In this document: positions 9,578-50,320 of the stretch, in pieces
How positions within the stretch are numbered: the first letter of the stretch is position 1
How the letters are laid out: every line of letters starts with the position of its first letter
Virus record (IMG/VR): IMGVR_UViG_3300009117_000047
Span: 19,877-83,876 of that record
Reading direction: 5' to 3' (one strand)
DNA from: a virus
Length of the DNA: 64,000 nt
Position numbers and translations under genes: made by a program
Notes under the pieces: generated by a model
What the model saw: only the letters and a program-made list of their open reading frames with translations
Told to the model about the DNA's origin: nothing
Databases searched by the model: none

Positions 9578-9823
9578 TTTTGCTCCTCCTTTATACTTAA
9601 AATCACGTTTCTATTGCCTTAGTTGGCATTTGTAGTAAATCATGTAAACAATTACACTTATAACTACGAGCATTAGATATACTCCTATTCCATAACCAAT
9701 ATTGGTATTTGGAAATACTTTTTATAATTTTGGGTATAAATAAAACACCAATTTTATGTCCATTTTAATACTATATATTGTGTTTACTTTCTATTTATTT
9801 ACTATATGTAGTATATATTTTTG

Positions 9824-10072
9824 TTATTTTTCAATATAAATGCTAAAATCACATTCTGGACATTCAATACTGTACGTATCATTGCCTCCGCAACCACTGT
9901 GATAAAATAGATCTGATTTAGCGTATTCCAGCTTACTACTACATTTAGGGCACTCTACAATAAATTTTCTTTCACTACCCTTTTCTAATACTTTAATCAT
10001 CTTTTCACTCCTAACTTCTGCAATAATTCGTACCAAGTACAATAAATTCCTAACCACAATCTCTGATACCAA
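9824..10072 (-). CDS. zinc-ribbon hypothetical protein (true start probably near 10000)
   Basis: CPKC...CPEC. Confidence 0.55.
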   Translation of the reverse strand: MVSEIVVRNLLYLVRIIAEVRSEKMIKVLEKGSERKFIVECPKCSSKLEYAKSDLFYHSGCGGNDTYSIECPECDFSIYIEK

Positions 10073-10203
10073 TGTAGCTTAATATCATACATTCCTAAAA
10101 ATGCTCGTCTACCCCGTTTATTGTCTAGCCCAACATCAATACTCTGTATGCTAGAACCATTCTTAAATTCAATCTTCATAATACCTCCTGCTATAGAATT
10201 CAA
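9997..10203 (-). CDS. hypothetical protein
   Basis: ORF track; SD suggests start at MKIEF. Confidence 0.55.
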   Translation of the reverse strand: MNSIAGGIMKIEFKNGSSIQSIDVGLDNKRGRRAFLGMYDIKLHWYQRLWLGIYCTWYELLQKLGVKR

Positions 10204-10206
10204 GAT

Positions 10207-10743
10207 TTATCTGCTCAAAATTTCTTCAAGTGTTACTGGTTCATAATCCCACATCATTGTTCCGACATTGTACATTTCACAACGAATACCTTCGCCAATT
10301 AAAAACTGTCTAATTTCTTCCACATAATCATCTTCCCTAGAATTGTGAACGTGGCCATACAGCATAATTGCTCCATGATAATGATGATTATAAAAATGAA
10401 TTGGATAGTGTGACAAAATTAATTTTTTACCATCAACGTTGATTTCAGCATAATCTTTTACTGACTCAAAACAACTTCTAATAGAGCTATTTAGTTTGTC
10501 GTGATTGCCTTTAATTAATTTCTTGATGCCATTTAATTGATTATAAATTTCAACCGTTTTATTATCTTTGTGCCAAGAAATATCGCCTAATATGTAAACA
10601 ACATCCTTAGAATCAACCTTGTTATTCCATCTTTTAATTAACTCTGCGTCCATTTCCTCAATATTTTTAAATGGACGATTATCATATTGAATAATATTTT
10701 TATGTCCAAAATGTAAATCACTTGTAAAATAAATCTTGTTCAT
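10207..10743 (-). CDS. calcineurin-like metallophosphoesterase
   Basis: SDLHFGH, LGD, GNHD, SHYP, GHVH. Confidence 0.9.
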   Translation of the reverse strand: MNKIYFTSDLHFGHKNIIQYDNRPFKNIEEMDAELIKRWNNKVDSKDVVYILGDISWHKDNKTVEIYNQLNGIKKLIKGNHDKLNSSIRSCFESVKDYAEINVDGKKLILSHYPIHFYNHHYHGAIMLYGHVHNSREDDYVEEIRQFLIGEGIRCEMYNVGTMMWDYEPVTLEEILSR

Positions 10744-10771
10744 ATTAGTTTCTCCTTTTAAAATTTCGGTT

Positions 10772-11344
10772 TTATTTGCTCAATCTACCATCATTCCCAA
10801 TAACTCTATAACTCTTTAATACTTCCATTTCTTGTTCATATGTATCACAAGCCAATAACATTGTTTTGATTTCACGAATTGAATCACCGAGTTTCCTTGC
10901 TTTAGCATCTCTTTCTTCTTCTACTGATTTTAGTTGCTCCTTCGTTTCTGGTGTAATATATAATTCTTTATCAATATGAATAGAAAGGTCGTAGCTATCA
11001 TCTATATACAAATCTTTAATGGTTTCATTTGCTTCATTAATACTTTTCATTAATTTAGTTACTCTTTCATCTGCTTCAACCAGTTTATTAATCTTTTCGT
11101 AATATTCATTTTCTACTTCAATGAGTCTTTTCTTAAAACATAAATCAACAATTCCTTTTGTCTTAATCTCTTTCATATTATTATCCTCCTGTGTAATCTT
11201 ACGTGCCATTTCATATAGTTCATCTTCTAACTTTTCCAAGTTGTCATTTTTACATGTTAATTTTATATTTTTAATTTGCAGTGTTAATCTTTTAAATTCA
11301 ATAATTTCTTCAACAGTTTTTGGCTTATATTGATCTTCAAGCAC
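10772..11344 (-). CDS. coiled-coil hypothetical protein (internal SD+ATG at 11176)
   Basis: ORF track; flanked by sites at 10759 and 11361. Confidence 0.65.
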   Translation of the reverse strand: MLEDQYKPKTVEEIIEFKRLTLQIKNIKLTCKNDNLEKLEDELYEMARKITQEDNNMKEIKTKGIVDLCFKKRLIEVENEYYEKINKLVEADERVTKLMKSINEANETIKDLYIDDSYDLSIHIDKELYITPETKEQLKSVEEERDAKARKLGDSIREIKTMLLACDTYEQEMEVLKSYRVIGNDGRLSK

Positions 11345-11381
11345 TATAGTATTCTCCTCTTAAAATAAATGTTTTATCTTG

Positions 11382-12107
11382 TTAAATGTCTTTCCAATGT
11401 TTGTATTTATTTGTATATCCAATACACTTTTTGTAACCATTTTCAATAAACCACTCACGATATTTTTCATTAAATGGTTCAAAATAACACCCATTTTCAG
11501 GACACATTGATTCATTTGTGCAACCACAACATGCATTCAAGTTATCCCCTGCTTCAAAGTAAGTTTTACACCTAACACATACTTCATTGTACCCACTTGG
11601 ATGAATTTCTTCATACTGACTATACTTTTCATCTTTCCATTCTTCTTTATGTAAAATTTGAACAATTTCATCTCTTAACTTTTTATTTTTTAAATACTCA
11701 GCAAATATTTCTTCATATATTTCTTTAGTTGTTTTTGTGTCAATTATTCCTGTTCCATTACAATTTTTACATGTGTTCTCTTTGATTATTGTTTTATTCT
11801 CAACATGAGAAATTTCCTCAATATATCCTTTCCCATTGCATTTAGGACATTCCTCTGACATATCATAAAAATAATAAGAAGGTAAATCGTATTCATGCTT
11901 TAATAATTTCCAGTAATAATCAACCTTCCGTCTCGCCAAAATTAACTCATAAGTTAAGTAATGTTTTTTCTTAACCAAAATTCCTTTACCGTTACATCTC
12001 TCACACTTAGTTGTCTCAATAGTTCTTATTTTATTTTCAATATCATAGTGTGTTTTATCTTTTACACATGTACCTTTGCAATTATCACACGTTACAAGTA
12101 AATCCAT
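11382..12107 (-). CDS. protein with DnaJ-type CxxCxGxG zinc-finger repeats (no J domain)
   Basis: CDNCKGT, CERCNGKG, CPKCNGKG, CKNCNGTG. Confidence 0.65.
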   Translation of the reverse strand: MDLLVTCDNCKGTCVKDKTHYDIENKIRTIETTKCERCNGKGILVKKKHYLTYELILARRKVDYYWKLLKHEYDLPSYYFYDMSEECPKCNGKGYIEEISHVENKTIIKENTCKNCNGTGIIDTKTTKEIYEEIFAEYLKNKKLRDEIVQILHKEEWKDEKYSQYEEIHPSGYNEVCVRCKTYFEAGDNLNACCGCTNESMCPENGCYFEPFNEKYREWFIENGYKKCIGYTNKYKHWKDI

Positions 12108-12135
12108 TTATATTCCTCCACTTAAAATACCTGAT

Positions 12136-12336
12136 TTAACTATAATCTTCTTCCATGAAATCACTGATAAACTCATCTACTTCGTAGTCACATGGAACAA
12201 AGTGTTTTGCACTAACCCATCGCCATTGTCTATTTAGGTATGTTAAAAACTTTGGATAACCATTAGAATCTTGCTCTACAGCATAAATCTTGATTTTAAC
12301 ACCCCAAGGTTCTCTTTTATCGTAAGCTAGAAACAT
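12136..12336 (-). CDS. hypothetical protein
   Basis: ORF track, SD. Confidence 0.65.
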   Translation of the reverse strand: MFLAYDKREPWGVKIKIYAVEQDSNGYPKFLTYLNRQWRWVSAKHFVPCDYEVDEFISDFMEEDYS

Positions 12337-12465
12337 ATGTAATCACTTCCTTTATTTAATTTTCTTCCATTCTAATTTGCCACAGGGACTTAGAAATATT
12401 GCAAAATCTCCGTAAACTGAAACTAATTTACCACATATATTTCCCATTAATTATTTTTCCTTTCA

Positions 12466-12696
12466 TTAAATTGACTTAGACTTTAAAATCTTGTATGGTC
12501 TTGTACCAATAAACAATCCTTGAAAATAACTTACACAATCTGAAATAGAATTTCCTTTATATAAATATGTACATCCAGTCTTTAAATCTTCAATCTCAAC
12601 TTTTACTAACGCAGGTTCGCTTATTGCTAACATTTTAATTAACCCTCTTTCTATAAATATGACCACAATCGCATCTATAAATTTCATACTTTCCAT
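12466..12696 (-). CDS. hypothetical protein
   Basis: ORF track; start uncertain. Confidence 0.45.
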   Translation of the reverse strand: MESMKFIDAIVVIFIERGLIKMLAISEPALVKVEIEDLKTGCTYLYKGNSISDCVSYFQGLFIGTRPYKILKSKSI

Positions 12697-12789
12697 CTGC
12701 CGATTTGGTCATATTATGTATTCTGCAAAAGCACTTTCTACAAACATTATCACTCAATTTAATTTCCTCCATAAAAGTGTGAATTTATC

Positions 12790-15595: not shown

Positions 15596-15901
15596 TTATT
15601 TTAATTTAAAACAAACGGCAGATACCTCACATTCATCTGGCATTTCAAATACGTTGTTCTCATATGTAGCAGTTTCATTTTCAGCAATAGTATTTGTATA
15701 TGTCGGTTGCAAATAAGCAGTCTGAATCATATCTAAAACTTTAAGTGCTTGAGTTTGTGTTGAATAGCTACCCATTGTATGTTCAACTAAACTATTCGTA
15801 TAAAATACAATTCTATATTTATCATCTTGTCTACCAACATGTGTCGTTCCCACCGTATCAAAATCAATTAACAATTTTTTATTTTGGCTTCTTACTCGCA
15901 T
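15596..15901 (-). CDS. hypothetical protein
   Basis: ORF track, SD. Confidence 0.7.
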   Translation of the reverse strand: MRVRSQNKKLLIDFDTVGTTHVGRQDDKYRIVFYTNSLVEHTMGSYSTQTQALKVLDMIQTAYLQPTYTNTIAENETATYENNVFEMPDECEVSAVCFKLK

Positions 15902-15912
15902 ATTTTCTCCTT

Positions 15913-16179
15913 TTAGTCTTTAACTGGCGTTAAATAGTAAACGCTGTTTAATGTAATAATTATAATTCTATTTCCATCAAATCTAACATCTTTCATAGCA
16001 CTCGTTCTAAGTGTTCCTTGTTTTTCATTTCCATTAGCATCCTTATAATATTCAAAAAATATCACATTATCAATTCCACAACACATGATGTTTTTAACAA
16101 TACAATTTTTACGAAATGGGTATCTACCATCTAGTCTTTCTTCTCCATCTCTATCCGTAATTAGGTCTATTTTGTACAT
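15913..16179 (-). CDS. hypothetical protein
   Basis: ORF track, SD. Confidence 0.7.
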   Translation of the reverse strand: MYKIDLITDRDGEERLDGRYPFRKNCIVKNIMCCGIDNVIFFEYYKDANGNEKQGTLRTSAMKDVRFDGNRIIIITLNSVYYLTPVKD

Positions 16180-16411
16180 ATCTTCTCCTTATTTTGGTCA
16201 TAAAATTCCAGTTTTATCTAGTGGTCAATATTTTAATCTTTACCTAATGCCCTATACTTTTTGATAGGTTTTTAGCTCTATTTTGAGTTTAATTATTTGG
16301 GGTGATAAAAATATCATGTAATTTGTCTAAGTCGTAAATAGCGTCAGAAACGTGTGTAATTTCCGTTGTTATTTGCTACTTTTAATTTAATTTTAGTTAT
16401 AATTATTTACT

Positions 16412-16882
16412 TTATCGACTCGTCAACCTGTCACCATAAATTTGTAATTCGTTGTTTTTATCAATGTAAGCAACACTAATGTATGAACTACTCATTCCAC
16501 AACTACAAAATAAATCGTCGTCAACGTAGGTTTTATATCTCAAAACATACTCCTTACGATTATCAAGCATTTCTTTAATTTCTTCTACACACTCAAATAC
16601 TTGACCAGTTTCGTCATATTTAGTTACAATATCATAAATTTGTTCTTCAATATTTTCAGGTTCACTTATTTGAAGAATATTTTTTATCTCATTTATACTC
16701 TTATCTTTTAATTCATCTAAATCAACTGGAAAATATCTTAAGTATCCTTTTGTTTTAAGTTCACGTAAAAGGTTATCAATCTTACCGAAAAAATAACTTT
16801 GTAACTCTGTATCATTTGTTTTATAAAACAGTCTAATTAATTCTTTTAGATCTACCAATTTCATGCCTAAATTAATTGTCAT
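16412..16882 (-). CDS. hypothetical protein
   Basis: ORF track. Confidence 0.65.
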   Translation of the reverse strand: MTINLGMKLVDLKELIRLFYKTNDTELQSYFFGKIDNLLRELKTKGYLRYFPVDLDELKDKSINEIKNILQISEPENIEEQIYDIVTKYDETGQVFECVEEIKEMLDNRKEYVLRYKTYVDDDLFCSCGMSSSYISVAYIDKNNELQIYGDRLTSR

Positions 16883-17070
16883 TATTCATTCTCCGTTTCT
16901 ACTAATTTATTTAATTCTTTTACACAGTCGAAACATAAAGTACAACTGTAAACTTGCGATTTATGTGCAGAAAACCTTACTACCTTTTCATCGTTATATT
17001 TAATCTCTTTTCCACAACCAATACATTTACCATTTCTTGATAGTGTGGTTATTCTAAAATTACTACTCAT
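16882..17070 (-). CDS. small Cys-containing hypothetical protein
   Basis: CIGC...CFDC. Confidence 0.6.
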   Translation of the reverse strand: MSSNFRITTLSRNGKCIGCGKEIKYNDEKVVRFSAHKSQVYSCTLCFDCVKELNKLVETENE

Positions 17071-17078
17071 CTCCTTAT

Positions 17079-19049
17079 TTATTCTCCTTTTAAAATTGTT
17101 AATAATTCTTTCTCTGTGATAATCTTGATTCCTAATTCTTTTGCTTTTTTGTTTTTACCACTGTTAGATGTGTTATCATTATTTACAAGATAACTTGTTT
17201 TATTAGATACTGAACCACTAACTTTGCCACCCAATTCTTCAATTTTTTCTTTCGCTACATCTCTATTTTCAAAATATTCAAGGCTACCCGTAATTACAAA
17301 TGTTAATCCAGTTAAATCTACACTACTTTTTTCTTTTACTTCTGGTTTCTGAAATTCTAAAACTTCTAATAATTCAGGAATATTTTCTTGTTTATATCTA
17401 TTTTCATACCAATCATAAATATTAAAATGTAAAACAGAACCGAATCCATCTAGGTTAGTAAACATATAAAATTTATCTAAAGCTTTCTTAAATTTGTTCC
17501 AATCATAATCAAAATGTTTTGCTAAAATCTTAGATTGTGACCTACCAATTCCTTCAATTCCTAAAGAATACAGAAAATTATCAAGTTTGACTTTTGCACT
17601 ATGCTCTATACTTTTTAATAGTTTTCCGACTGATTTTGACCCGAAACCGTCTAGCTTGACAATTTCATCGCAGTGATTTTTCAAGGCGTAAATATCCTTA
17701 AAATCATGTAAAATATCTAAGGCTATTAGCTTATTCAAAGTTTCTTCTGACAATCCATCAATGTTCATTCCAGCCTTACAAACAAAATTATTCAGCTTTC
17801 CTAAAAGTTTTCCTTTACATTCTGGATTAGCACAATACAAAACTTTTGATACATTATCTTGTTTTACTTTTGTATAGCCACCACAGATGGGACATGTTTC
17901 GGGGATTTCTAATGTATCACTTTTAGTTAAGTTTTCTTTGACTTGAGGAATAATTTGATTAGCTTTATAAACTGTAATTTCATCTCCAATTCCAAGTTTC
18001 AAATCTCTAAGAATACTAATATTATGAAGAGAGGCTCTACTAACTTCTGTCCCATCAATATCGACCGAATCAAATATTGCAACTGGTGTTAAATTCCCTG
18101 TCTTACCCATAGACCATTCTATATCTCTGAGTTTGGTTACAACTTCTTCATCGTAGAATTTAAAAGCTAGCTGTGAACGTAAATGATGTCCAGTAGCCCC
18201 TAATGACTCTCCGTAAGCAATATCATCATACCCAATTACTAATCCATCAATAGGATAATCACAAATCTCTGCTGATAATTTTAATTCTTCTATTATTTTT
18301 TCTAAGTATTCGCTAGAAGAATGTTTTAATATAAATCTATTCGGCACAACATCAAAGCCAAAATAAAGCAATTGATGTAGCTGCTCTGAAAAGCTATTTT
18401 CTTCTAAACCTTTAACACATTTCCAAGCTACAAATTCTATATTTCTGTCTTTAGAAACTTTACTATCAAGTTGGCGTACAGATCCAGCAGCTAAATTTCT
18501 AGGAGTTTTATATTTTTCTTTATCGGGAGGAAGGCTGCTGTTGATATTATTAAAATTTTCGTATGTAATAATTGCTTCCCCATCTACAATAAATTCTCCT
18601 AAATACGGAATTGTTAGTGGAATATTAGAAAATACTTTTGCGTTATGAGTAATATCTTCACCTTCAATACCATTTCCTCTAGTCTCAGCAGAAATTAATC
18701 TACCATCTAAATATTTAAGGGAACAAGTAAGACCATCTAATTTCAACATCAGCAAGCAATCTTTATCGCCTATGAACTTCTCTAAATCTCCAACTGATTT
18801 TGTTTTATCTAATGACAACATGGAATGGTTGTGGGTCACTTTTTCTAATTTACTTTTTACTTCATATCCTACTGTTTGAGTTGGCGAATTACTCATAACA
18901 AAATCGTTTTCTTGTTCTAATCGTTTAAGCTCTGTAAACCAAGTATCATATTGGTAGTCAGTCATAACACTGGTTGAATTATTGTAGTAACTATCTCTTG
19001 CTTTATTTAACAAAGAAGTTAATTCTTTAATTCTTGAAATTTGATCCAT
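17079..19049 (-). CDS. ligA: NAD-dependent DNA ligase
   Basis: KLDG adenylation motif, OB fold, CPIC..C..C Zn finger, HhH repeats, C-terminal BRCT (TFVITGSL...VSGSVS). Confidence 0.95.
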   Translation of the reverse strand: MDQISRIKELTSLLNKARDSYYNNSTSVMTDYQYDTWFTELKRLEQENDFVMSNSPTQTVGYEVKSKLEKVTHNHSMLSLDKTKSVGDLEKFIGDKDCLLMLKLDGLTCSLKYLDGRLISAETRGNGIEGEDITHNAKVFSNIPLTIPYLGEFIVDGEAIITYENFNNINSSLPPDKEKYKTPRNLAAGSVRQLDSKVSKDRNIEFVAWKCVKGLEENSFSEQLHQLLYFGFDVVPNRFILKHSSSEYLEKIIEELKLSAEICDYPIDGLVIGYDDIAYGESLGATGHHLRSQLAFKFYDEEVVTKLRDIEWSMGKTGNLTPVAIFDSVDIDGTEVSRASLHNISILRDLKLGIGDEITVYKANQIIPQVKENLTKSDTLEIPETCPICGGYTKVKQDNVSKVLYCANPECKGKLLGKLNNFVCKAGMNIDGLSEETLNKLIALDILHDFKDIYALKNHCDEIVKLDGFGSKSVGKLLKSIEHSAKVKLDNFLYSLGIEGIGRSQSKILAKHFDYDWNKFKKALDKFYMFTNLDGFGSVLHFNIYDWYENRYKQENIPELLEVLEFQKPEVKEKSSVDLTGLTFVITGSLEYFENRDVAKEKIEELGGKVSGSVSNKTSYLVNNDNTSNSGKNKKAKELGIKIITEKELLTILKGE

Positions 19050-20787: not shown

Positions 20788-21042
20788 TTATCTTAGACTC
20801 ATTAGCCACATTTCTCTTTGAATTTGTCTATTTTCTCGTCTTAATTCATCGTTTAAATATTCTGCAAGTTTTAATCGTGTTTCTAATTTTTCAATTTGTT
20901 TTAATAATTCCTTACACTCTTGACATTGATGGTCTTCTGTCTCATTGAAAAACCGATCAAAAACTTCGTCGGACACCTCTGCTATTGCTTCTCCTGTTTT
21001 CCCATCATATATTCCACACAACAATGTTTTACATCTTTTCAT
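20788..21042 (-). CDS. hypothetical protein
   Basis: ORF track, SD. Confidence 0.65.
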   Translation of the reverse strand: MKRCKTLLCGIYDGKTGEAIAEVSDEVFDRFFNETEDHQCQECKELLKQIEKLETRLKLAEYLNDELRRENRQIQREMWLMSLR

Positions 21043-21135
21043 ATATCATTTACCCTTCCCGTTTAGATACGATATATAGTAAATAATTAAATATAAAAAC
21101 TATATATTGTATCTAATACTAATTAAAATTCGATT

Positions 21136-21324
21136 TTATCTTATTTCTTTAATTTCTTTTTCGATTTGCTCAATATATTTTATTTTGTCTAAAAGCTTAT
21201 CTTTGTATTTTAAAAGATTATTATGGTAATCAGATATAGCTTCTTCTTCTGTTGACCCTGAACCCCAAATGTCAATAATATTCCAATCGCTTACACTATA
21301 ATATTCTTGTTTCTCAACTTTCAT
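21136..21324 (-). CDS. hypothetical protein
   Basis: ORF track, SD. Confidence 0.65.
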   Translation of the reverse strand: MKVEKQEYYSVSDWNIIDIWGSGSTEEEAISDYHNNLLKYKDKLLDKIKYIEQIEKEIKEIR

Positions 21325-31994: not shown

Positions 31995-32039
31995 TTTATT
32001 TTCCTCCTTATAATTTTGTTTTTAATTAGAGTTTATAAC

Positions 32040-32321: not shown

Positions 32322-32348
32322 TAGCTATTTTAAATTAGAGTTATAGAT

Positions 32349-32651: not shown

Positions 32652-32708
32652 GTTTAACATCCTTTCTTATAATTTAAAACATCGGTTTTATTGGTTAATC
32701 TTTTAAAT

Positions 32709-33257
32709 TTAAATATCATATCTTTTTGTGTCTCCGTATTCATCTCCTACATCTAACATATCAAAATGAAGGTCAATTATATCAGTATCATTGATTTCAT
32801 CGTAATCGAAAAAGTCTTCAATTTTCTGTTTTTCGCTTATAACAATATACAAATTTCCTTCATCGCTAATATATGATTTTTGCGATTCGTTGTTTTCGTC
32901 GCTATCTCCAATCCAACTGACATAATAATCATAATGCTCCACCGTTAGAGATTGATTTTCTTCATAATAAGTATTAATCAAATCAAAACTTATTGATGTT
33001 ATGTCATTATACTTAACCAATCTATCAAATACATTCTCTTTGGAATCTAATTGTTCAAATGGTCTATGAGGACTATTGGCATCTTTATGTATCTCAATAA
33101 TAAATTTATTACAAACATCCATTTTACCAATTGCATTACAAGCAATTCTACGTATAGATGTTGTGATATCCCCTACTAAAAAATTCCCTATATATTTCCC
33201 GTCTATTGTAATGTAATCACAATTTTCCAATCCAAACGTTATAGTTTTTAATTTCAT
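32709..33257 (-). CDS. hypothetical phage protein
   Basis: ORF track, SD. Confidence 0.7.
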   Translation of the reverse strand: MKLKTITFGLENCDYITIDGKYIGNFLVGDITTSIRRIACNAIGKMDVCNKFIIEIHKDANSPHRPFEQLDSKENVFDRLVKYNDITSISFDLINTYYEENQSLTVEHYDYYVSWIGDSDENNESQKSYISDEGNLYIVISEKQKIEDFFDYDEINDTDIIDLHFDMLDVGDEYGDTKRYDI

Positions 33258-33272
33258 TTGTTTCCTCCCTAT

Positions 33273-33545
33273 TTACTCATCAAATTTCTCTAACATCTCT
33301 TCGTAATATGTAATTTCATCTTCGATATGTTCTCTTATTTTATCTTCAAGTTGCTTTTTCGCATCATTTATTGAAATCGCATTAATATAATTATCTCCAC
33401 CTCGTAAAATATCAGAAAGATACCAGAACGTGCCTTCTGCTCCCTGTACAAAAGTTAGAATAATTTCATCGTCATCATAAAAATGTATAAAATGCAATTC
33501 ATAACTTCCATCCCTATAAGTCCAATATTTGTTTTTATTCATCAC
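33273..33545 (-). CDS. hypothetical protein
   Basis: ORF track, SD. Confidence 0.65.
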   Translation of the reverse strand: MMNKNKYWTYRDGSYELHFIHFYDDDEIILTFVQGAEGTFWYLSDILRGGDNYINAISINDAKKQLEDKIREHIEDEITYYEEMLEKFDE

Positions 33546-33639
33546 GTAACCTCCTTACAACTTAAAATGAAAATTTTATTCGGTTATCAATACTATGTAT
33601 AGTATATTTATTTAATTGATACTACTATATGTAGTTGTC

Positions 33640-34483
33640 TTATTCGCCTACGTAAATTAATCTTTCAATATACTCTCTATCTTCGCCTTTAAAAATAGGA
33701 ATATCCTTATCAATAAGCCATCTTGTTGTATTTTTTGGGAGAATACATCAAAAACCCTTCAACCCAACAATGTTTAGTGACACAAGTTCCACGCTTTTGA
33801 TACGTCGGAAGGTCGTTCCAGTTAATTTCTTTTTGTATCATCAACATATCTTGAATCATATTACAAGATTTATTATGCAATTCTTTATGGCTAAAGTTTG
33901 CTTGACCAACCATCTGAATACTATTTCTAGTAGCGTCTAATTGTCTCCAATAGATATAATTTGCAACTTCTTCTTTTGGAATATTAAAGCAACGAGTATC
34001 AAACATAGCACAATTCATTTTTTTAAAATACACATCAAACATTGCATTTGCTTTTTCTGAATTGCCTGTGTTATTCTTACATAGTTCTTTTCTGACTTTA
34101 TATTCACTTTCCACAATGTTATTAAAAAATTTATTAAAAGCCATTGTTGCCATACTAGCAGCTACACTGCACATTTTTTGAACTTCATAATCAAACCATG
34201 CGTCCGTTGTTAATCTCTGATAGTCAATCAAGACAAGACTGATTTCGTCAGATTGAGTATAGCCCAGTACACACCCCTGAATATTCTCACAAAGATATTT
34301 TGTTGTTTCCTGCATAGTCTTAATCAGAATATCATCAAATGGCCTATTCATTCCTTTTGTAAAAGTATGAAACGCTTTACCGTCAATACGAATAATAACA
34401 GGTGTTCTTCTCATTAATTTTGTTTTTGGAATTTGTTCATAATATTCTTTCATTCTCTTGTCTAATTCGTCGTTTACTGGCAT
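33640..34483 (-). CDS. thg1: tRNA(His) guanylyltransferase Thg1-like 3'-5' polymerase; C-terminus frameshifted (in-frame stop at 33710)
   Basis: RIDGKAFHTFT, GYTQSDEIS, FDTR, WRQLDATRNS, KRGT; +1 frame continues RWLIDKDIPIFKGEDREYIERLIYVGE. Confidence 0.9.
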
Positions 34484-34485
34484 AA

Positions 34486-34896
34486 CTAAACCTCCATCAT
34501 TTTTCTTAACTCTTGTTCTCTGTCAAATACTAATTCGCTGTAATTATTAAACCCTAAATCCTCTTGTAAATCTTTTATTGATGGATTTTCTACTTTTTTA
34601 TAAGTGTGTTCTATGGTTAATTTAACTAATTCATCTCTATATATTCTTTTACGGGCGATATCGTAATCATTAATGTAAATTCTATTTTTAAACTTAGTTT
34701 TATATCCTTCAAATCCGTCGATATAATTGTTTATCTTTGAAAGTTTTTCCCACGCAGTATCAGTAAATTCTTCATATGTATCTTCTGGCATAATTCCGTA
34801 TTTATAACGCCATCCACCAATATCATTAACTATCGTTTTACCGTTACTTAAAAATAATTTAACTTCTAATTTTCCTGTTTTATAAACACATTTCAA
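34486..34896 (-). CDS. hypothetical protein
   Basis: ORF track, SD+TTG. Confidence 0.7.
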   Translation of the reverse strand: MKCVYKTGKLEVKLFLSNGKTIVNDIGGWRYKYGIMPEDTYEEFTDTAWEKLSKINNYIDGFEGYKTKFKNRIYINDYDIARKRIYRDELVKLTIEHTYKKVENPSIKDLQEDLGFNNYSELVFDREQELRKMMEV

Positions 34897-34928
34897 TAGT
34901 TTACCTCCTTTAAAATTACTCTTTTATT

Positions 34929-35606
34929 TTAATCAATAATTTCTGTTTCAAGTTTAATCACTCTAATTGATGCAATCATGCTCATAAGTTCGTTCATGGA
35001 TTCTATTTCTAAATCTGTTCCATAACCCGTACCATCATAAAACTCAGCAGTCAAACATCCATCTTTTTTCGCAAAGCCATTTTCACCATCTTCAAACATC
35101 CCTTGTAAATCATCTCTAAGAGATTCTACTTGGTCAAAGAAGCAAGAAGACCAATGCCCTTTAGTAGTATATTCAACTGTCAAATACTTTCTAAAATCAT
35201 CTTCTGCTACAAATAGCACTTCATATGCAACTTTGTATTCTGCATTACTACAATGATCAACATATGAATCAGTAACCGTTGGTAGTTGTGAGCTGTGATC
35301 TTTAACAAAATAAGGAATATAATAATCTGTGGCAAATTTTAAATCTTTGCCGTCTGCATATGTCCTACTCCTCTGACAAAGTTGAACATCTTCTCGTAGC
35401 TTATCAAAAATATATGTATTGTTATTTTCTTTGTCTTTTTTAAAATATGAAATAACTTCTCCGTTAGATTCAATTCTGCCTACAAATGTTCCATGCCTAT
35501 CACCATTCCACTTATAACCATCTTCAACTGTGATGAAGGTATTGTTTTTTAACTCTGTATAATCAGGAATATCAAAGTATGAACACACTTCAATTTGATT
35601 TTTCAT
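34929..35606 (-). CDS. hypothetical protein
   Basis: ORF track, SD. Confidence 0.75.
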   Translation of the reverse strand: MKNQIEVCSYFDIPDYTELKNNTFITVEDGYKWNGDRHGTFVGRIESNGEVISYFKKDKENNNTYIFDKLREDVQLCQRSRTYADGKDLKFATDYYIPYFVKDHSSQLPTVTDSYVDHCSNAEYKVAYEVLFVAEDDFRKYLTVEYTTKGHWSSCFFDQVESLRDDLQGMFEDGENGFAKKDGCLTAEFYDGTGYGTDLEIESMNELMSMIASIRVIKLETEIID

Positions 35607-35621
35607 ATACTAATCCTCCTT

Positions 35622-35918
35622 TTATTCTTCTTCTAAATAACAATCAATGTCATCATCAATAAAACTATCTAGAATATTTGATATATGTTCAATAAATTTT
35701 TCTGAAAATACTGAGATAAAATCTTCTAAGTCACAAATACTATCATCTCCCCACACTATATTGCATTCATCTGGTGATACTAAATCATTATCAGAACTTG
35801 GCATTTTTAGGACTCCTGTTTCGTAAACAATGTCACTAATTACTTCATTCATATCATAACCTTCTGGTTCTGTTATATATCTTTTTACAGCCATTAAAGT
35901 TTTCTTATGCGCTTTCAA
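35622..35918 (-). CDS. hypothetical protein
   Basis: ORF track, SD+TTG. Confidence 0.7.
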   Translation of the reverse strand: MKAHKKTLMAVKRYITEPEGYDMNEVISDIVYETGVLKMPSSDNDLVSPDECNIVWGDDSICDLEDFISVFSEKFIEHISNILDSFIDDDIDCYLEEE

Positions 35919-35931
35919 AATAGTCCTCCTA

Positions 35932-36141
35932 TCAGTCTACCAAATCAAAATATTTTCTTATTTCTCCAATGTTATCCAAAACTGATACTAAATTTCCATT
36001 ACCAAAATCAACCTTAATTCCATCATTCATTGGGACACATTCAAATTCATCACCAACGTTTATATTCTTAAATACATCTGAATACTCACCAACATTAATT
36101 TCAATCTCTTGTTTCGCTTTTAATCTCATATTAACCTCCAA
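35932..36141 (-). CDS. hypothetical protein (start probably MRLK)
   Basis: ORF track. Confidence 0.6.
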   Translation of the reverse strand: MEVNMRLKAKQEIEINVGEYSDVFKNINVGDEFECVPMNDGIKVDFGNGNLVSVLDNIGEIRKYFDLVD

Positions 36142-36169
36142 TTTTCAACTTAAAATGTTCGTTTTATCT

Positions 36170-36541
36170 TTATTTAGTTTTATTTGTATTTGAAGTCTTT
36201 ACTTTTATTGTGAATGTACCCATCACAACAAACAATATGATATATGTCCATGTTCCTACAATGTTGAATCCACCAATAAACCTGTCCATTAATAATAATT
36301 CAACTAAATTTAATACTGGGGCTAAAAATACGCACATTATTAATGGCAAACATCCTACAAGTAAAGGTGTTGTCAATGTAGAAATCATTAATAACCAACC
36401 ATACAAAAAATTTAATACAAATGGAATAATAGATACGATTAACAATGTTTGCATTCCATCAATTTGTACGTTGTTTGGAAAGTAAGTCATACCAATCCAA
36501 AACATAGCGAAAATTATAACTAGATTTAGTATTCTTCTCAT
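36170..36541 (-). CDS. 4-TM membrane protein, phage holin superfamily IV (YvlD-like)
   Basis: Four hydrophobic helices with ...GGF.I.G.W pattern. Confidence 0.6.
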   Translation of the reverse strand: MRRILNLVIIFAMFWIGMTYFPNNVQIDGMQTLLIVSIIPFVLNFLYGWLLMISTLTTPLLVGCLPLIMCVFLAPVLNLVELLLMDRFIGGFNIVGTWTYIILFVVMGTFTIKVKTSNTNKTK

Positions 36542-36575
36542 TTGATTCCTCCTTAAATTCGTGTTTTTAAGTTAA

Positions 36576-36914
36576 TTATTCTACATTTTCACATTCAACA
36601 ATGTTAGGATATAATGACAACAAAGGCACTCTATATCCTCTTGTTTCAAATTTATATGTTTCTCCAATTTCAATTTGTGCATATACATCTGAAGAATTAA
36701 ATTTTGTCAAAAGTAAACTATCTACATTTTCAAACACTTGGGAATTTCCATTTGCATCTTTTGTAAAAATCAAATACTTGCTTTCGTCCTTACTATTCTT
36801 AACTACTTTATCAGTTACCGTTCCCACAATCTCTTGTTTGTTAGAGACTCTTTGAAAAACACTACCAGTAATTAACGCTACTACGCATACACACATAACA
36901 ATAAATTTTTTCAT
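36576..36914 (-). CDS. secreted/anchored DUF1523-like protein
   Basis: N-terminal TM; VFENVDSLL..KFNSSD...GYRVP.LS.YPNI. Confidence 0.6.
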   Translation of the reverse strand: MKKFIVMCVCVVALITGSVFQRVSNKQEIVGTVTDKVVKNSKDESKYLIFTKDANGNSQVFENVDSLLLTKFNSSDVYAQIEIGETYKFETRGYRVPLLSLYPNIVECENVE

Positions 36915-37172
36915 TTTTTATCCTCCTAAATTAATCTTCAATTTTTGAAATTGCAATATCTTCCATAACATATCCAAGTTCTGACTTAATTTCTTTAACC
37001 TTTTCATATGTTTCATCTGACATTTCAATTTCAAATTCATATTCACTTGTTAAATCTTCAATTTTATATTTACTCATATTATCCTTCTCCTTAAAATTCA
37101 TATTTTATGTACTTTTATATACTATATATTGTGTTTATTTTGTTCGTTAATACTATATTTTGTGGTATAAAT

Positions 37173-37859
37173 TTATTTTTCTTTATAATCCCATAAATAT
37201 AATGCTTCATATACTTTTAGCGGTATTTTATCCTTATATTCTTCAGCAATTTTTCTAATGTGTTCAATTTGCTTACAACCATGTGCATCAACAGCGTCTT
37301 CTAATTTGTTAAATACTCCAATGTTATTCCCGTTATATTTTGCTAAATATTTGCCATTTTTAATTAAAGTAATTCCGTTTGGTAAATTACGACTGTTCCT
37401 CTTTTGCATAAATAACATATTTATTCTTTGCGGTACTATTAAGCATGTGTCTGGTGAGTATATTTTATTGTTTTTAATTAAAATATCTTTATCCAAATGC
37501 ATCCTCTCATTATCTACCTGATAATAATTTTTAAAATACCACTCTGCAAAATTTTGATAGTTGTGCCACTCCTTACATACTGTACAAATGTTATAATATG
37601 ATTTGTATTTTATGCAGCTTTTTTCTGAATAACATCTTTCTAATATTCCTCTCCATATATAATAAATGTTAATTGGATTGCTTTTAATTGAAGACCATTC
37701 GCCTTCTCCTAAATAACCAATATTATAGGTTGTTTTATCATAAGGATTTAATACACTACCTCGTTTAAAATTTGAATATGTAGTTTTAGTTATAAAATTA
37801 TTATCATCTAAGAACATTATTTTAATATCATTAATTCCGTGTGACTCAATAATTTCCAT
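37173..37859 (-). CDS. HNH homing endonuclease
   Basis: W..IL.RCY, CKEWHNYQNFAEW, LDKDIL, YSPDTCLIVP..IN, AP2-like C-terminus. Confidence 0.8.
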   Translation of the reverse strand: MEIIESHGINDIKIMFLDDNNFITKTTYSNFKRGSVLNPYDKTTYNIGYLGEGEWSSIKSNPINIYYIWRGILERCYSEKSCIKYKSYYNICTVCKEWHNYQNFAEWYFKNYYQVDNERMHLDKDILIKNNKIYSPDTCLIVPQRINMLFMQKRNSRNLPNGITLIKNGKYLAKYNGNNIGVFNKLEDAVDAHGCKQIEHIRKIAEEYKDKIPLKVYEALYLWDYKEK

Positions 37860-37943
37860 TACAGTGCCATATGTGTTTTTATTTGTTTCTCCAATTTTTA
37901 TTATTCATCATCCTTTATTATTATATTATTTAAATCATTTTTT

Positions 37944-38273
37944 TTATTTTGTAATCCCAACCGCATTAATAATAAATTCGTCAATAACTAAAACACCATC
38001 TTCATTTTTATGTGTTTTAAGTACACTACAATCTGTTCCACCAAATCTTAAAATACCATCTACATTAACTGTAGAATCCTTTTTTGAATATTTTGCATTA
38101 GTTACCACACCAATCACAATATCTTCGTCACCAGTTTTATCAATAATTGCTGCACCTTTATATGTACTTTCAGCATTAATAATTGCTTCTTCTGTGTAAA
38201 TATTTCCGTTACAATCTGGTCTATTAACTGGCATAGGTAATTCAAGCCTGACTTTTACGTTCTCACATCTCAT
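37944..38273 (-). CDS. hypothetical protein
   Basis: ORF track, SD. Confidence 0.7.
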   Translation of the reverse strand: MRCENVKVRLELPMPVNRPDCNGNIYTEEAIINAESTYKGAAIIDKTGDEDIVIGVVTNAKYSKKDSTVNVDGILRFGGTDCSVLKTHKNEDGVLVIDEFIINAVGITK

Positions 38274-48681: not shown

Positions 48682-48772
48682 TTACTAAATCTTTCATCCT
48701 AAACTTCATATCATCTTTCTGCTCTTTGTCTAAAGTTGCAATAATATTAACCATTTCACTACTCCTCTCCAT
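48533..48772 (-). CDS. zinc-ribbon hypothetical protein
   Basis: CSEC...CIC. Confidence 0.6.
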   Translation of the reverse strand: MERSSEMVNIIATLDKEQKDDMKFRMKDLVNVCVCSECNALLQFNREDIDRTKILPHVKCICGNMVQLHSKYYKEEDTY

Positions 48773-48795
48773 TTAAAATCAAACTTTTATTTGTT

Positions 48796-49035
48796 TTAAT
48801 AACAATCATCGTTAGCCAATATCATTTTAACTGTTCTACATTTTGGGCAAGCATATAAATTGACCGCTAATTCGTCTTCGTAGTAATAGTCACCATGTTC
48901 TGGTGGCGTTGAATTTTCAATTTTAAATTTATGATCTGTAAAAATTTGATGAAATTTTTCATCGCCTATCATATGCTTATAACCATTTTCAGTCCATTCT
49001 CCAAAATGCTCATATCCACAAGCTTGACATTTCAT
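48796..49035 (-). CDS. zinc-ribbon hypothetical protein
   Basis: CQAC...ACPKC. Confidence 0.7.
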   Translation of the reverse strand: MKCQACGYEHFGEWTENGYKHMIGDEKFHQIFTDHKFKIENSTPPEHGDYYYEDELAVNLYACPKCRTVKMILANDDCY

Positions 49036-49233
49036 AACTAATCCTCCTTTATATTTTATTCTACTTTATATTTTTCTTTATATAGTTCTAAAGCTTCTGA
49101 TATGACTTCAAATGCACCTTCGTCACCACTATGATTGCAAATATCTATATACCCATTATCCATCTGAAGCTCTAAATATTTTATTGCGTGAAATCTGTCT
49201 TTTTCATCCATATTAAACCTCCTTATTTTATAA

Positions 49234-49461
49234 TCAAGCCCACGGGCTTCTGCTGTACTTTATCTTGTTTTCTTTCGCTGGAATCTTTTTAAGTGCTTCA
49301 TCTTTACTTTTATACAGCCTACTTTTTCTCACACGAATCACCGTATCAGTATCCACAAATTTTATCGTGTAAAACTCACCAGAAACCCGAATAACTTTTA
49401 CTTCTTTGACTTGAGAATTATTCGTTATAATATATCGGATGATTTCTTTGCTGTTGTCCAT
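49234..49461 (-). CDS. hypothetical protein
   Basis: Start reassigned to MDNS after GAAGGTG. Confidence 0.6.
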   Translation of the reverse strand: MDNSKEIIRYIITNNSQVKEVKVIRVSGEFYTIKFVDTDTVIRVRKSRLYKSKDEALKKIPAKENKIKYSRSPWA

Positions 49462-49489
49462 ACTATCACCTTCTTCATATCTCAAACTT

Positions 49490-49684
49490 TTATTGCATAA
49501 TTTTTATTCCGCAACCTTCACATATAGCGTGTAAATGACCATTAGTTTCAGCTTTAATACCCATAGCATTTCCTCCGCAAACAGGACACTCAAAATTGTA
49601 AGCCTTGCCTCTGTCTACTATTACTTCGTTGGCTATTGAAATAAACTTAAAAAGAATTTCTAAAGCTTTATCATCTTTGCTCAT
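49490..49684 (-). CDS. zinc-ribbon hypothetical protein
   Basis: CPVC...CEGC. Confidence 0.65.
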   Translation of the reverse strand: MSKDDKALEILFKFISIANEVIVDRGKAYNFECPVCGGNAMGIKAETNGHLHAICEGCGIKIMQ

Positions 49685-49844
49685 GATTTATTCTCCTTTA
49701 CTTTAACGCTATGAATTATATATGATTCCATGTTCTTCGCTTCATCTAAATCCTCTTCAAAACAGTATCTTAATGTTTCTTCTGTATTTTCTTTGTCATC
49801 TGCAAAATCTGTTTCTATGTCAATAATTAATTGTGTTCTAACTT

Positions 49845-50093
49845 TCATTCTAACACCTCCCCTACTTTACTATGTTTAGTCAACCAATAATAAATTTCAT
49901 GATTACAAATTCTATCTGTACAGTTTTCTGGATTACCACAAACAGCTTCACAAACACTTTCTGAAAATTTATCCATACCAATATAATTAACGATTTCATC
50001 ATTAGACATATCCTTTAATTTTTCATCAGAATGCAGTCCTAATTTACTCAAAATATTCTTATCAAGACATCTAATTTTATCAGCATTTGTCAT
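49845..50093 (-). CDS. hypothetical protein (MTNADKIR type)
   Basis: ORF track, SD. Confidence 0.65.
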   Translation of the reverse strand: MTNADKIRCLDKNILSKLGLHSDEKLKDMSNDEIVNYIGMDKFSESVCEAVCGNPENCTDRICNHEIYYWLTKHSKVGEVLE

Positions 50094-50320
50094 TTTGCCC
50101 CTCCTTAACTTTTATGTACTATATATTGTATTATTAAATGTAAATTGTTACAATATATAGTGTTAATACCCCAATAAAATTGCCATTCTATTGCTTGTTA
50201 GCATTCGTAGCAAATCGCACAATTGCTTGTGCTTATGACTACAGGCATTAGATATGCCTCTATCCCATAACCATTAATAGTATTTGGGGAATACTTTAGT
50301 GTTACTCAATTCAGTATCAA

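What the first reader, a model, noticed from the sequence alone, without database searches (positions are those of the whole stretch)
9741..50190. Tandem NrdR-box-like pairs sit 11 nt from a junction site at five loci, in both orientations
Seen: site 9741-9756 then boxes 9768/9799; site 33563-33578 then 33590/33622; site 37092-37107 then 37119/37150; boxes 50116/50148 then site 50175; boxes 21067/21097 then site 21123/4. The gap is 11 nt (10-11 at the degenerate 21123 site) and the boxes are 30-32 bp apart. Known: the NrdR box consensus is acaCwAtATaTwGtgt, it occurs as pairs about 31 bp apart, and NrdR is an ATP/dATP-sensing oligomer that normally represses ribonucleotide reductase genes. No RNR gene is in this window and I see no consensus -35 positioned with these boxes. 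Inference: one-helical-turn phasing kept on either side suggests a composite nucleoprotein site (core plus accessory boxes, like Xer cer/psi or integron attI). Host NrdR or a phage mimic could then gate recombination or transcription on dNTP status. The geometry also argues that the TAAAA-N6-TTTTA site works at the DNA level.
Basis: partly seen in the sequence, partly recalled or inferred. Interest (0 to 1): 0.8.

Follow-up and report, generated by a model that had tools for sequence, protein, structure and literature searches.

The report
Phage NrdR operators beside inverted repeat
A large gut-bacterial prophage carries six pairs of binding sites for the host's DNA-precursor sensor NrdR in front of non-reductase genes, each exactly 11 bp from a phage-specific inverted repeat; dozens of related phages share the layout, so it is a real regulatory cassette that I did not find described in the papers searched.

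Summary
All five loci exist as described, although two of the "sites" are degenerate. A sixth pair lies outside the window. Simulated genomes give no such pairs. All 12 boxes keep the positions that published mutagenesis found critical for NrdR binding (C4, A6, T11, G13), with linkers of 14-16 bp. A matrix built only from these boxes finds the operator pair upstream of nrdD in 20 of 30 Lachnospiraceae loci. The phages encode no NrdR, so the host protein is the likely binder.

The spacing rule holds across relatives. In an unbiased sample of phage contigs, 36 of 41 repeat-flanked box pairs have a gap of exactly 11 or 16 bp, in either orientation, and the gap sequences are diverse.

"One helical turn" is wrong: centre-to-centre distances are 27 or 32 bp, and one orthologous locus has 11 bp here and 16 bp in relatives.

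The repeat's arms are genome-specific, and its edge is a mosaic breakpoint.

Best reading (about 0.5): promoter cassettes repressible by NrdR, with a phage-specific operator or leader element starting near +1. Recombination gating is not excluded (about 0.15).

This scan had already noted NrdR boxes before phage reductase genes on other DNA.

The parts
9741..9756 (.). Inverted repeat TAAAA-N6-TTTTA (perfect). On the gene (minus) strand it lies downstream of the box pair.
9757..9767 (-). 11-nt gap. On the gene strand it reads TAAAATGGACA and begins with a -10-like TAAAAT.
9768..9783 (.). NrdR-type box next to the repeat (12.5 of 13 points; C4, A6, T11, G13 present)
9799..9814 (.). Second NrdR-type box of the pair, 15-bp linker
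21067..21082 (.). NrdR-type box next to the ribosome-binding site of gene 20788-21042 (minus strand)
21097..21112 (.). Second NrdR-type box of the pair, 14-bp linker
21124..21138 (.). Degenerate repeat TAAAA-N5-TTTTA, 11 nt from the box. On the gene strand it lies upstream of the pair (type II layout), just after the stop codon of gene 21136-21324.
33563..33578 (.). Inverted repeat (perfect), followed on the minus strand by AAGGAGG and the GTG start of gene 33273-33545
33590..33605 (.). NrdR-type box next to the repeat; 11-nt gap (TGATAACCGAA on the gene strand)
33622..33637 (.). Second NrdR-type box, 16-bp linker, downstream of the Thg1-like gene 33710-34483
37092..37107 (.). Inverted repeat (perfect), followed on the minus strand by AGGAGAAGG and an ATG at 37076
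37119..37134 (.). NrdR-type box next to the repeat; 11-nt gap (ATAAAAGTACA on the gene strand)
37150..37165 (.). Second NrdR-type box, 15-bp linker, 7 nt after the stop codon of an HNH endonuclease gene (37173-37859)
50116..50131 (.). NrdR-type box next to the ribosome-binding site of gene 49845-50093 (minus strand)
50148..50163 (.). Second NrdR-type box, 16-bp linker. On the gene strand TTGTAA-17-TACAAT (9 of 12 promoter matches) is embedded in the pair.
50175..50190 (.). Degenerate repeat (one arm mismatch), 11 nt from the box. On the gene strand it lies upstream of the pair (type II layout), downstream of the tyrosine recombinase gene 50321-51337.

Best explanation
Each locus is a conserved three-part regulatory cassette of a large temperate phage of Lachnospiraceae.

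The parts are:
- two (in relatives up to three) operator boxes of the NrdR type;
- a spacer of fixed length, 11 bp here and 11 or 16 bp in relatives, that usually begins with a -10-like TAAAAT abutting the box;
- the phage's own 16-bp inverted repeat, which also precedes the ribosome-binding site of about 60 early genes.

Proposed mechanism (inferred):
- This blocks initiation at the weak promoter that overlaps or abuts the boxes, and probably also blocks read-through from upstream.
- The downstream early genes are then expressed only when dATP is low.
- The inverted repeat starts at about +1 of that promoter.
- It is the target of a second, phage-specific factor: a dimeric DNA-binding regulator (operator or 'stoperator'-like) or a 5'-leader-binding or processing factor.
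- The fixed gap is a property of this cassette, not a one-turn phasing to a recombination core.

Shown: the existence, statistics and conservation of the layout; the NrdR-type sequence of the boxes; the absence of a phage NrdR.

Inferred: NrdR binding, the promoter and start-site position, and the nature of the factor that reads the repeat.
For: Boxes:
- All 12 keep C4, A6, T11 and G13, with at least 7 of 8 A/T bases between C4 and G13. Linkers are 14-16 bp.
- These are the requirements found by mutagenesis and binding assays (PMC13584703; PMC12051234).
- A matrix built only from the phage boxes finds a tandem pair 30-33 bp apart just upstream of host nrdD in 20 of 30 sampled Lachnospiraceae loci. 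One example is Lacrimispora, which carries a related prophage.
- NrdR is present in 31 of 31 sampled Lachnospiraceae genomes. No full-length NrdR or NrdR zinc ribbon was found in three phage genomes.

Cassette:
- There are six pairs in this genome and none in 60 simulations.
- Two complete relatives have five arrays each, and every array is flanked by the repeat at 11 or 16 bp.
- Among 52 arrays in relatives, all 41 with a perfect-core repeat within 40 nt have it at 11, 12 or 16 nt.
- An unbiased pattern scan of phage contigs gave gap 11 in 23 cases, gap 16 in 13, and other values in 5.
- The 11-nt gaps comprise 27 different sequences with consensus TAAAAT...cA, so length rather than sequence is what is conserved.
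- 42 of 48 arrays that could be oriented have the order boxes, gap, repeat, ribosome-binding site, gene.
- Known NrdR promoters can have the -10 just downstream of box 2 (PMC12051234).

Repeat:
- Its arms are uniform within a genome but differ between relatives: TAAAA/TTTTA here, and AGAAA or TGAAA with TTTCT or TTTCA elsewhere.
- Its RNA hairpin would be unstable here, at +1.4 kcal/mol when forced.
- Half-site centres are 11 bp apart.
- These three points favour a sequence-specific dimeric protein.
Against: - No convincing -35 accompanies the boxes, whereas the phage has textbook TTGACA-17-TATAAT promoters elsewhere. That these are promoters at all is an inference.
- No terminator precedes the cassettes.
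- The minority layout (repeat, 11-12 nt, boxes, ribosome-binding site) is not explained by a start site at the repeat. It occurs at two loci here and in at least six relatives' arrays.
- The two spacing classes differ by 5 bp, which neither promoter geometry nor simple protein-protein contact predicts cleanly.
- The genes immediately downstream are small and of unknown function. A link to DNA-precursor supply is visible only loosely: an NAD-dependent ligase lies downstream of the 21067 pair. The phage nrdD/nrdG genes lie 10.7 kb downstream of the 9768 pair and have no boxes of their own.
- No transcript data could be obtained.
Confidence: 0.5

Rival explanations
1. Composite recombination site. 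The inverted repeat is the core site of a phage tyrosine recombinase, with two arms around a 6-bp centre. The NrdR boxes act as accessory sites at fixed distance, so that cassette exchange or integration is gated by the dNTP-sensing repressor.
For: - The spacing is quantised and occurs in both orientations relative to the gene, as expected for a DNA-level assembly. One locus (L231) has a repeat 11 nt from each end of the pair.
- The right edge of the repeat is a mosaic breakpoint. The 150 nt upstream are about 80% identical among relatives, but at least 7 unrelated genes follow each of two modules.
- Two relatives are 98% identical for 3.95 kb up to the last base of the repeat.
- Orthologous repeats keep the same 6-bp centre across phages.
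- Every relative encodes 2-4 tyrosine recombinases. One such gene abuts the 50116 locus. Two tandem repeats precede another recombinase gene in the late region.
Against: - The arms are only 5 bp, against 11-13 bp in dif, lox or FRT.
- The 43 centres in this genome all differ, so the sites cannot recombine with each other in the usual tyrosine-recombinase way.
- Only 6 of about 60 repeats carry boxes.
- Recombinase adjacency is not conserved in the two complete relatives.
- Other boundaries of swapped genes do not lie at repeats.
- Breakpoints at short conserved regulatory motifs are known to arise by homologous recombination, as with PeSLs in T4-like phages (PMC4122927). This phage encodes a Sak-like annealing protein.
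Confidence: 0.15
2. The inverted repeat acts on RNA. It would be a 5'-leader or intercistronic element read by a phage RNA-binding protein or nuclease (translation control, processing or stabilisation). It must sit at the very 5' end of transcripts made from the NrdR-controlled promoters, and that requirement fixes the gap.
For: - The repeat lies 0-12 nt upstream of the Shine-Dalgarno sequence of about 60 genes, nearly all on the gene strand of one early block.
- Relatives have longer arms (CAAGAAA/TTTCTTG) that would fold at about -5.5 kcal/mol.
- The same operons carry two self-cleaving ribozymes, pistol and twister, so RNA processing does occur here.
- With a -10 at gap positions 1-6, the start falls on the purine at repeat position 2.
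Against: - The hairpin in this phage is unstable.
- The arms are conserved in sequence rather than by compensatory change.
- Hybrid arms occur in both senses: AGAAA..TTTTA and TAAAA..TTTCA.
- The type II layout places the repeat outside the downstream transcript yet still at 11-12 nt.
- One-mismatch variants show no clear bias towards G-U wobble on the sense strand.
Confidence: 0.2
3. NrdR decoy. The arrays are not promoters. They are titration sites: as the phage genome replicates, they soak up the scarce host NrdR and so derepress host and phage ribonucleotide reductase genes.
For: - There are 5-6 arrays per genome, some with three boxes, at non-reductase genes, with no clear promoter.
- The function would be independent of orientation.
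- The phage's own nrdD/nrdG genes have no boxes.
- The idea was raised by an earlier unchecked note of this scan on another phage.
Against: - It does not explain the fixed distance to the inverted repeat.
- It does not explain the strict intergenic placement just upstream of genes.
- It does not explain the conservation of particular arrays at orthologous loci.
Confidence: 0.1
4. The boxes are read not by NrdR but by a phage-encoded protein, and the likeness to NrdR operators is convergent in an AT-rich palindrome.
For: - The genes controlled are not reductase genes.
- The constant partnership with a phage-specific repeat hints at a phage-specific system.
- Small zinc-ribbon proteins are encoded nearby, for example 9824-10072.
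Against: - All four critical NrdR positions are kept in 12 of 12 boxes.
- The 14-16-bp linker rule is obeyed.
- The phage-derived matrix retrieves host nrdD operators.
- No NrdR-like zinc ribbon is detectable in three phage genomes.
Confidence: 0.08

Closest known systems
Bacterial NrdR operators at nrd promoters (PMC9110341, PMC12051234, PMC13584703)
   Same: - 16-bp partly palindromic boxes with C4, A6, T11 and G13 and an AT-rich centre.
- Two boxes with a 14-16-bp linker.
- Boxes overlapping or abutting promoter elements.
- More than two boxes also occur in bacteria: three in S. pneumoniae nrdHEF and four in L. monocytogenes nrdAB.
   Different: - Here the boxes are in a phage, ahead of small non-reductase genes.
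- There are 5-6 arrays per genome.
- Each array is coupled at 11 or 16 bp to a second, phage-specific inverted repeat that host nrd operators lack.
NrdR boxes in front of phage ribonucleotide reductase genes
   Same: A phage borrows the host's dNTP sensor.
   Different: Those sites sit at or near phage nrd genes. In this phage nrdD has no boxes of its own, and the arrays sit elsewhere with a partner motif.
Stoperators of mycobacteriophage L5 and Cluster A phages (my own knowledge, Brown et al. 1997; mentioned in PMC3203893)
   Same: There are dozens of copies of one short, genome-specific protein-binding site in the short gaps between genes of a temperate phage, plus copies at promoters.
   Different: L5 sites are asymmetric 13-mers that depend on orientation, and their repressor is known. 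Here the site is a palindrome with a free 6-bp centre, lies just before ribosome-binding sites, and no binder has been identified.
PeSL promoter/stem-loop cassettes of T4-like phages (PMC2839356, PMC4122927)
   Same: These are small composite regulatory motifs repeated between early genes that coincide with the breakpoints of gene swaps.
   Different: PeSLs are an early promoter plus a terminator hairpin, and they carry no host-repressor operator. Exchange there is by homologous recombination.
Start-associated sequences (SAS/ESAS) of Cluster K mycobacteriophages (PMC3203893)
   Same: A repeated motif lies a few bases upstream of many start codons. Some copies have an inverted repeat with a variable spacer. 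Its function is unknown, and it is conserved while the downstream genes differ.
   Different: The sequence, host phylum and size differ (13-bp SAS, 17-bp arms). There is no link to a host repressor's operator.
Xer cer/psi and integron attI/attC sites (my own knowledge)
   Same: Inverted arms lie around a 6-8-bp centre. Accessory protein sites lie at a defined distance. In integrons, the sites lie between a stop codon and the next ribosome-binding site.
   Different: The arms here are much shorter. The centres differ between copies. No recombinase has been linked to the site, and accessory boxes are present at only a tenth of the sites.

Membership tests
NrdR operator (NrdR box pair) | 16-bp box with the critical C4 and G13 (8 bp between them), A6 and T11, and at least 63% A/T between C4 and G13 (PMC13584703) | tested here: met
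   12 of 12 boxes have all four positions and 7-8 of 8 A/T
NrdR operator (NrdR box pair) | Two boxes are required, with a 15-16-bp linker (14-17 tolerated) | tested here: met
   Linkers are 15, 14, 16, 15, 16 and 15 bp. Relatives have start-to-start distances of 30-33 bp.
NrdR operator (NrdR box pair) | Same motif as the nrd operators of the host group | tested here: met
   A matrix from the phage boxes finds tandem pairs upstream of nrdD in 20 of 30 Lachnospiraceae loci. The exact host species is unknown.
NrdR operator (NrdR box pair) | Lies in the promoter region of a ribonucleotide reductase operon | tested here: not met
   The downstream genes are small unknowns. The phage nrdD/nrdG genes have no boxes of their own.
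NrdR operator (NrdR box pair) | An NrdR protein is available in the cell | tested here: met
   NrdR found in 31 of 31 sampled Lachnospiraceae genomes. None found in the phages.
NrdR operator (NrdR box pair) | Bound by NrdR loaded with dATP and ATP, and released with ATP alone | not testable with these tools
   Needs a gel-shift or thermophoresis assay
Tyrosine-recombinase core with accessory sites (cer/psi, attI-like) | Two inverted recombinase-binding arms around a 6-8-bp crossover region | tested here: inconclusive
   The 5+6+5 layout fits in form, but only 5 bp (plus one weakly conserved flanking base) are conserved per arm
Tyrosine-recombinase core with accessory sites (cer/psi, attI-like) | Partner sites share the crossover sequence | tested here: not met
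   All centres within the genome differ. Only orthologous sites of different phages share them.
Tyrosine-recombinase core with accessory sites (cer/psi, attI-like) | Accessory protein sites at a fixed distance from the core | tested here: inconclusive
   The distance is fixed at 11 or 16 bp, but boxes accompany only about a tenth of the repeats and lie on either side
Tyrosine-recombinase core with accessory sites (cer/psi, attI-like) | A cognate recombinase acts on the site | not testable with these tools
   Recombinase genes are present, but adjacency is not conserved
Operator or stoperator of a phage repressor | Many genome-specific copies in intergenic gaps of a temperate phage, some overlapping promoters | tested here: met
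   - 43 perfect copies plus about 17 with one mismatch, nearly all intergenic.
- The arm type is genome-specific.
- The record is an integrated prophage with a host flank.
- Copies overlap TTGACA-type promoters at 42860 and 16201.
Operator or stoperator of a phage repressor | An identified cognate repressor | tested here: not met
   The one candidate tried, a 70-residue XRE-type protein, is not conserved in the family

The most novel reading that the evidence does not exclude
The NrdR box array and the phage inverted repeat together form one nucleoprotein switch. Host NrdR, reporting dATP/ATP status, and a phage protein bound 11 or 16 bp away would jointly decide either expression of, or site-specific exchange at, a landing pad behind which related phages carry different cargo genes. 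That would make it a metabolite-gated cassette system in phages.
Probability: 0.15. Interest if true: 0.85.

Novelty: new variant of a known kind. Interest (0 to 1): 0.68.

Why it matters
NrdR is regarded as a repressor dedicated to ribonucleotide reductase genes. Here a whole family of 100-220-kb phages of gut Clostridia places 5-6 NrdR operator arrays in front of other early genes. Each array lies at a fixed distance from a second, phage-specific motif.

If NrdR binds these arrays, the phages read the host's dATP/ATP sensor to time or license parts of their programme. That would be a new input for phage decision-making and an expansion of the NrdR regulon.

The cassette is simple, with two known boxes, a fixed gap and a 16-bp palindrome. 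The natural 11- and 16-bp variants make spacing experiments straightforward. The motif's position at gene-swap breakpoints also bears on how mosaic phage genomes exchange cargo.

Tried and rejected
- **Repeat as a sigma-70 -10 element.** A -35-like hexamer 16-18 nt upstream is no commoner than at random TAAAA positions.
- **Repeat as a stable RNA hairpin in this phage.** The forced 5-bp stem costs +1.4 kcal/mol.
- **Phage-encoded NrdR or NrdR-like zinc ribbon.** None was found.
- **Boxes upstream of the phage nrdD.** There are none; the preceding gene overlaps the nrdD start.
- **Known RNA families in the leaders after the 9741 repeat and in the hairpin region 50190-50320.** Nothing was found.
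- **A 70-residue XRE-type protein next to a recombinase gene as the repeat binder.** It is not conserved in relatives.
- **Control of the replication genes by the 33590 pair.** A terminator-like hairpin at 31386 lies between them, so this cannot be claimed.
- **Near-identical phage records.** The megablast search found nothing.
- **Public sequencing runs.** None was listed for 30000-38000, so no transcript ends could be examined.
- **Naming the host from a flank protein.** The protein is not on record.
- **One script timed out and was rerun**.

Full report
**What the DNA is.** The window is bases 19877-83876 of a 135,850-bp virus record of 31% G+C. The first 11 kb have 40-46% G+C and are followed by an integrase gene, so the record is an integrated prophage with a host flank. 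The window is an almost unbroken block of minus-strand early genes. These include a DnaE-type polymerase, primase, DnaB-like helicase, exonuclease, NAD-dependent ligase, a Sak-like annealing protein, a Thg1-like enzyme, methyltransferase, an HNH endonuclease and two integrase-like genes. The polymerase is distantly related to those of Clostridium phage c-st, phiCD211 and Bacillus phage Tsamsa. Closer relatives number in the hundreds among 80-220-kb gut and rumen phage contigs. They also occur as prophages or contigs in Lacrimispora, Robinsoniella, Blautia, Agathobacter, Coprococcus and other Clostridia, mostly Lachnospiraceae.

**The observation.** All five loci are as described.
- A scan weighted on the published consensus gives 12 hits of at least 11 of 13 points in the whole genome. 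Ten of them lie in six tandem pairs 30-32 bp apart. These are the five reported pairs plus one at genome 130785/130816, outside the window.
- Sixty second-order Markov simulations gave no pair.
- TAAAA-N6-TTTTA occurs 36 times in the window against 1.9 expected.
- Three loci (9741, 33563, 37092) have a perfect repeat 11 nt from a box.
- The sixth locus has a TAAAA-N5-TTTTA at 11 nt.
- The loci at 21124 (N5) and 50175 (one mismatch) have degenerate repeats, also at 11 nt, but on the other side of the pair.

**Are the boxes NrdR boxes?**
- Published work defines the site as two 16-bp boxes with a 15-16-bp linker, with 14-17 bp tolerated. C4 and G13 are essential, A6 and T11 are critical, and the centre is AT-rich. 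A single box is not bound (PMC12051234; PMC13584703).
- All 12 phage boxes meet every point, and the linkers are 14-16 bp.
- A position matrix built only from the phage boxes finds a tandem pair 30-33 bp apart directly upstream of nrdD in 20 of 30 sampled Lachnospiraceae loci. In Lacrimispora the nrdD pair lies between a TATAAT and the ribosome-binding site.
- NrdR is present in 31 of 31 sampled genomes of that family.
- In the phages the only ATP-cone belongs to NrdD. A profile of the NrdR zinc ribbon finds nothing significant in three phage genomes.
- The likely binder is therefore host NrdR. Binding itself is untested.

**What lies downstream.** The genes just behind the pairs are small and without known families. 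The NAD-dependent ligase lies in the run of genes behind the 21067 pair. A terminator-like hairpin at 31386 separates the 33590 pair from the replication genes, so control of those genes cannot be claimed. The phage has nrdD (split by an HNH/NUMOD4 gene), nrdG and a FocA-like channel 10.7 kb downstream of the 9768 pair. These genes have no boxes of their own.

**The inverted repeat.**
- In this genome there are 43 perfect copies and about 17 copies with one mismatch. Almost all lie in the early block, after a stop codon and 0-12 nt before a Shine-Dalgarno sequence.
- Conservation covers the two 5-bp arms plus a weak A/T on each side. The 6-bp centre is free.
- No -35 is enriched upstream, and the RNA stem would be unstable.
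- Relatives use either the same arms (10-25 perfect copies per record) or AGAAA/TGAAA with TTTCT/TTTCA, often extended to CAAGAAA/TTTCTTG (25-31 relaxed copies).
- Arms that are uniform within a genome and differ between genomes, with half-site centres 11 bp apart, point to a sequence-specific dimeric factor encoded by the phage. This is an inference.

**The spacing rule.**
- Two complete relatives (155 and 161 kb, with terminal repeats) have five arrays each, of two or three boxes 31-32 bp apart. Every array has the repeat at 11 or 16 nt.
- Among 52 distinct arrays in the relatives' loci, 41 have a perfect-core repeat within 40 nt. All 41 are at 11, 12 or 16 nt. The background density of such repeats is 3.6 per 10,000 nt.
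- A pattern scan of the whole phage-contig collection that asked only for two boxes returned 83 pairs. Of these, 41 have a repeat within 40 nt: gap 11 in 23, gap 16 in 13, gap 9-10 in 3, and other values in 2 loci.
- The 11-nt gaps comprise 27 different sequences, so the length is under selection and the rule is not a by-product of recent copying.
- Of 108 arrays, 42 have the order boxes, gap, repeat, ribosome-binding site, gene. Six have the order repeat, gap, boxes, ribosome-binding site, gene. Sixteen could not be oriented, and 45 have no repeat.

**What the geometry does and does not say.** The 11 nt is an edge-to-edge distance. Box and repeat centres are 27 bp apart (about 2.6 turns), or 32 bp in the second class. 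The locus behind the Thg1-like gene has 11 nt in this phage and 16 nt in its relatives, with the last five gap bases (CCGAA) conserved. That is a natural +5 shift. "One helical turn" is therefore not the right description, although the quantised spacing is real.

In the 11-nt class the gap begins with a -10-like TAAAAT that abuts the box. About half the boxes end in TGA, which would give an extended -10. A start 6-7 nt further on would fall on the purine at repeat position 2. Known NrdR promoters can have the -10 just after box 2.

This supports reading the common layout as a promoter with boxes over the -35 and spacer region, the -10 in the gap, and the repeat from about +1. It does not explain the minority layout or the 16-nt class cleanly.

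**Mosaic junctions.** For two orthologous modules, the 150 nt ending with the repeat are about 80% identical among relatives. The 150 nt after it fall into at least seven unrelated classes, each beginning with its own ribosome-binding site. Two relatives are 98% identical for 3.95 kb up to the last base of the repeat and unrelated after it. Other ends of swapped segments do not lie at repeats. This pattern fits site-specific exchange. It fits equally well homologous exchange at a short conserved regulatory motif, as documented for PeSLs in T4-like phages. All relatives carry 2-4 tyrosine recombinases, but adjacency to a module is not conserved.

**Verdict.** The boxes are NrdR-type operators recruited by a phage family to non-reductase early genes. 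They are locked at 11 or 16 bp to a phage-specific palindrome.
- I rate an NrdR-repressible promoter cassette with a phage-specific operator or leader element at about 0.5.
- I rate a recombination composite at about 0.15.
- I rate an RNA-level role for the repeat at about 0.2.
- I rate a decoy role at about 0.1.
- I rate a non-NrdR binder at about 0.08.

I found no paper describing NrdR boxes at non-reductase phage genes or this composite. Earlier unchecked notes of this scan report NrdR boxes at or near phage reductase genes on other genomes.

Noticed in passing
window 55826-55897 (-) and 60366-60432 (-): Both matches lie on the gene strand inside the early operons. One is a pistol ribozyme (56.3 bits against a gathering score of 34.5). 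The other is a type-P5 twister ribozyme (47.5 bits against 37.6). The pistol follows the inverted repeat at 55966-55981, which is one of the few repeats not followed by a ribosome-binding site.
   Followed up: no
L012 15870-18911 (genome coordinates, minus strand; outside the window): The phage nrdD is split. The ATP-cone and N-terminal part lies at 18255-18911 and the C-terminal part at 15870-17327. Between them lies a 186-residue NUMOD4/HNH homing-endonuclease gene (17481-18041), which suggests an intron or similar insertion.
   Followed up: partly
L012 14387-15507 (minus strand): Directly after nrdD come the NrdG activase and a 205-residue formate/nitrite-transporter-family (FocA-like) protein. 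Formate is the reductant of class III reductases, so this may be an auxiliary gene for precursor supply.
   Followed up: no
window 47336, 46711 and 15571 (minus strand; positions of the -35 hexamer): Three textbook TTGACA-17-TATAAT-type promoters are each preceded, about 10 nt upstream of the -35, by the motif AAACTCTAATTWAAAA. A further copy lies downstream of the 15571 promoter. This is probably the 'second dispersed motif' of another first-stage note.
   Followed up: partly
window 45528-45500 (minus strand): The promoter TTGACG-17-TATAAT carries in its spacer a near-consensus Firmicute LexA (Cheo) box. On the other strand it reads AGAACATATGTTTC. This suggests an SOS-controlled gene.
   Followed up: no
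L014 7341-7378 (genome 111217-111254, + strand): Two inverted repeats 22 bp apart, with similar centres (GCAAGA and GCAGTA), lie between a stop codon and a strong terminator. A 343-residue tyrosine recombinase gene follows directly. A 70-residue XRE-type gene follows that recombinase.
   Followed up: partly
L012 1-12712: About 11 kb of 40-46% G+C DNA is followed by a 408-residue integrase gene (11486-12712). This marks the left prophage end, so the record contains host flank.
   Followed up: partly
L231 (IMG/VR contig 3300038805_000216), about 5770-5817: One box pair is flanked on both sides, at 11 nt each, by perfect TAAAA-N6-TTTTA repeats.
   Followed up: no
L049 3925-4142: A 190-nt segment lies between two AGAAA-type or TGAAA-type repeats. 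Both repeats are followed by TTGGCTT. It looks like a small cassette inserted at a repeat.
   Followed up: no
window 9577-9740 (minus strand): The repeat at 9741 is followed by about 160 nt with no ribosome-binding site close by. This stretch holds only a 20-codon hydrophobic ORF before the next gene. It could be a leader or a small RNA. No Rfam family matches it.
   Followed up: partly
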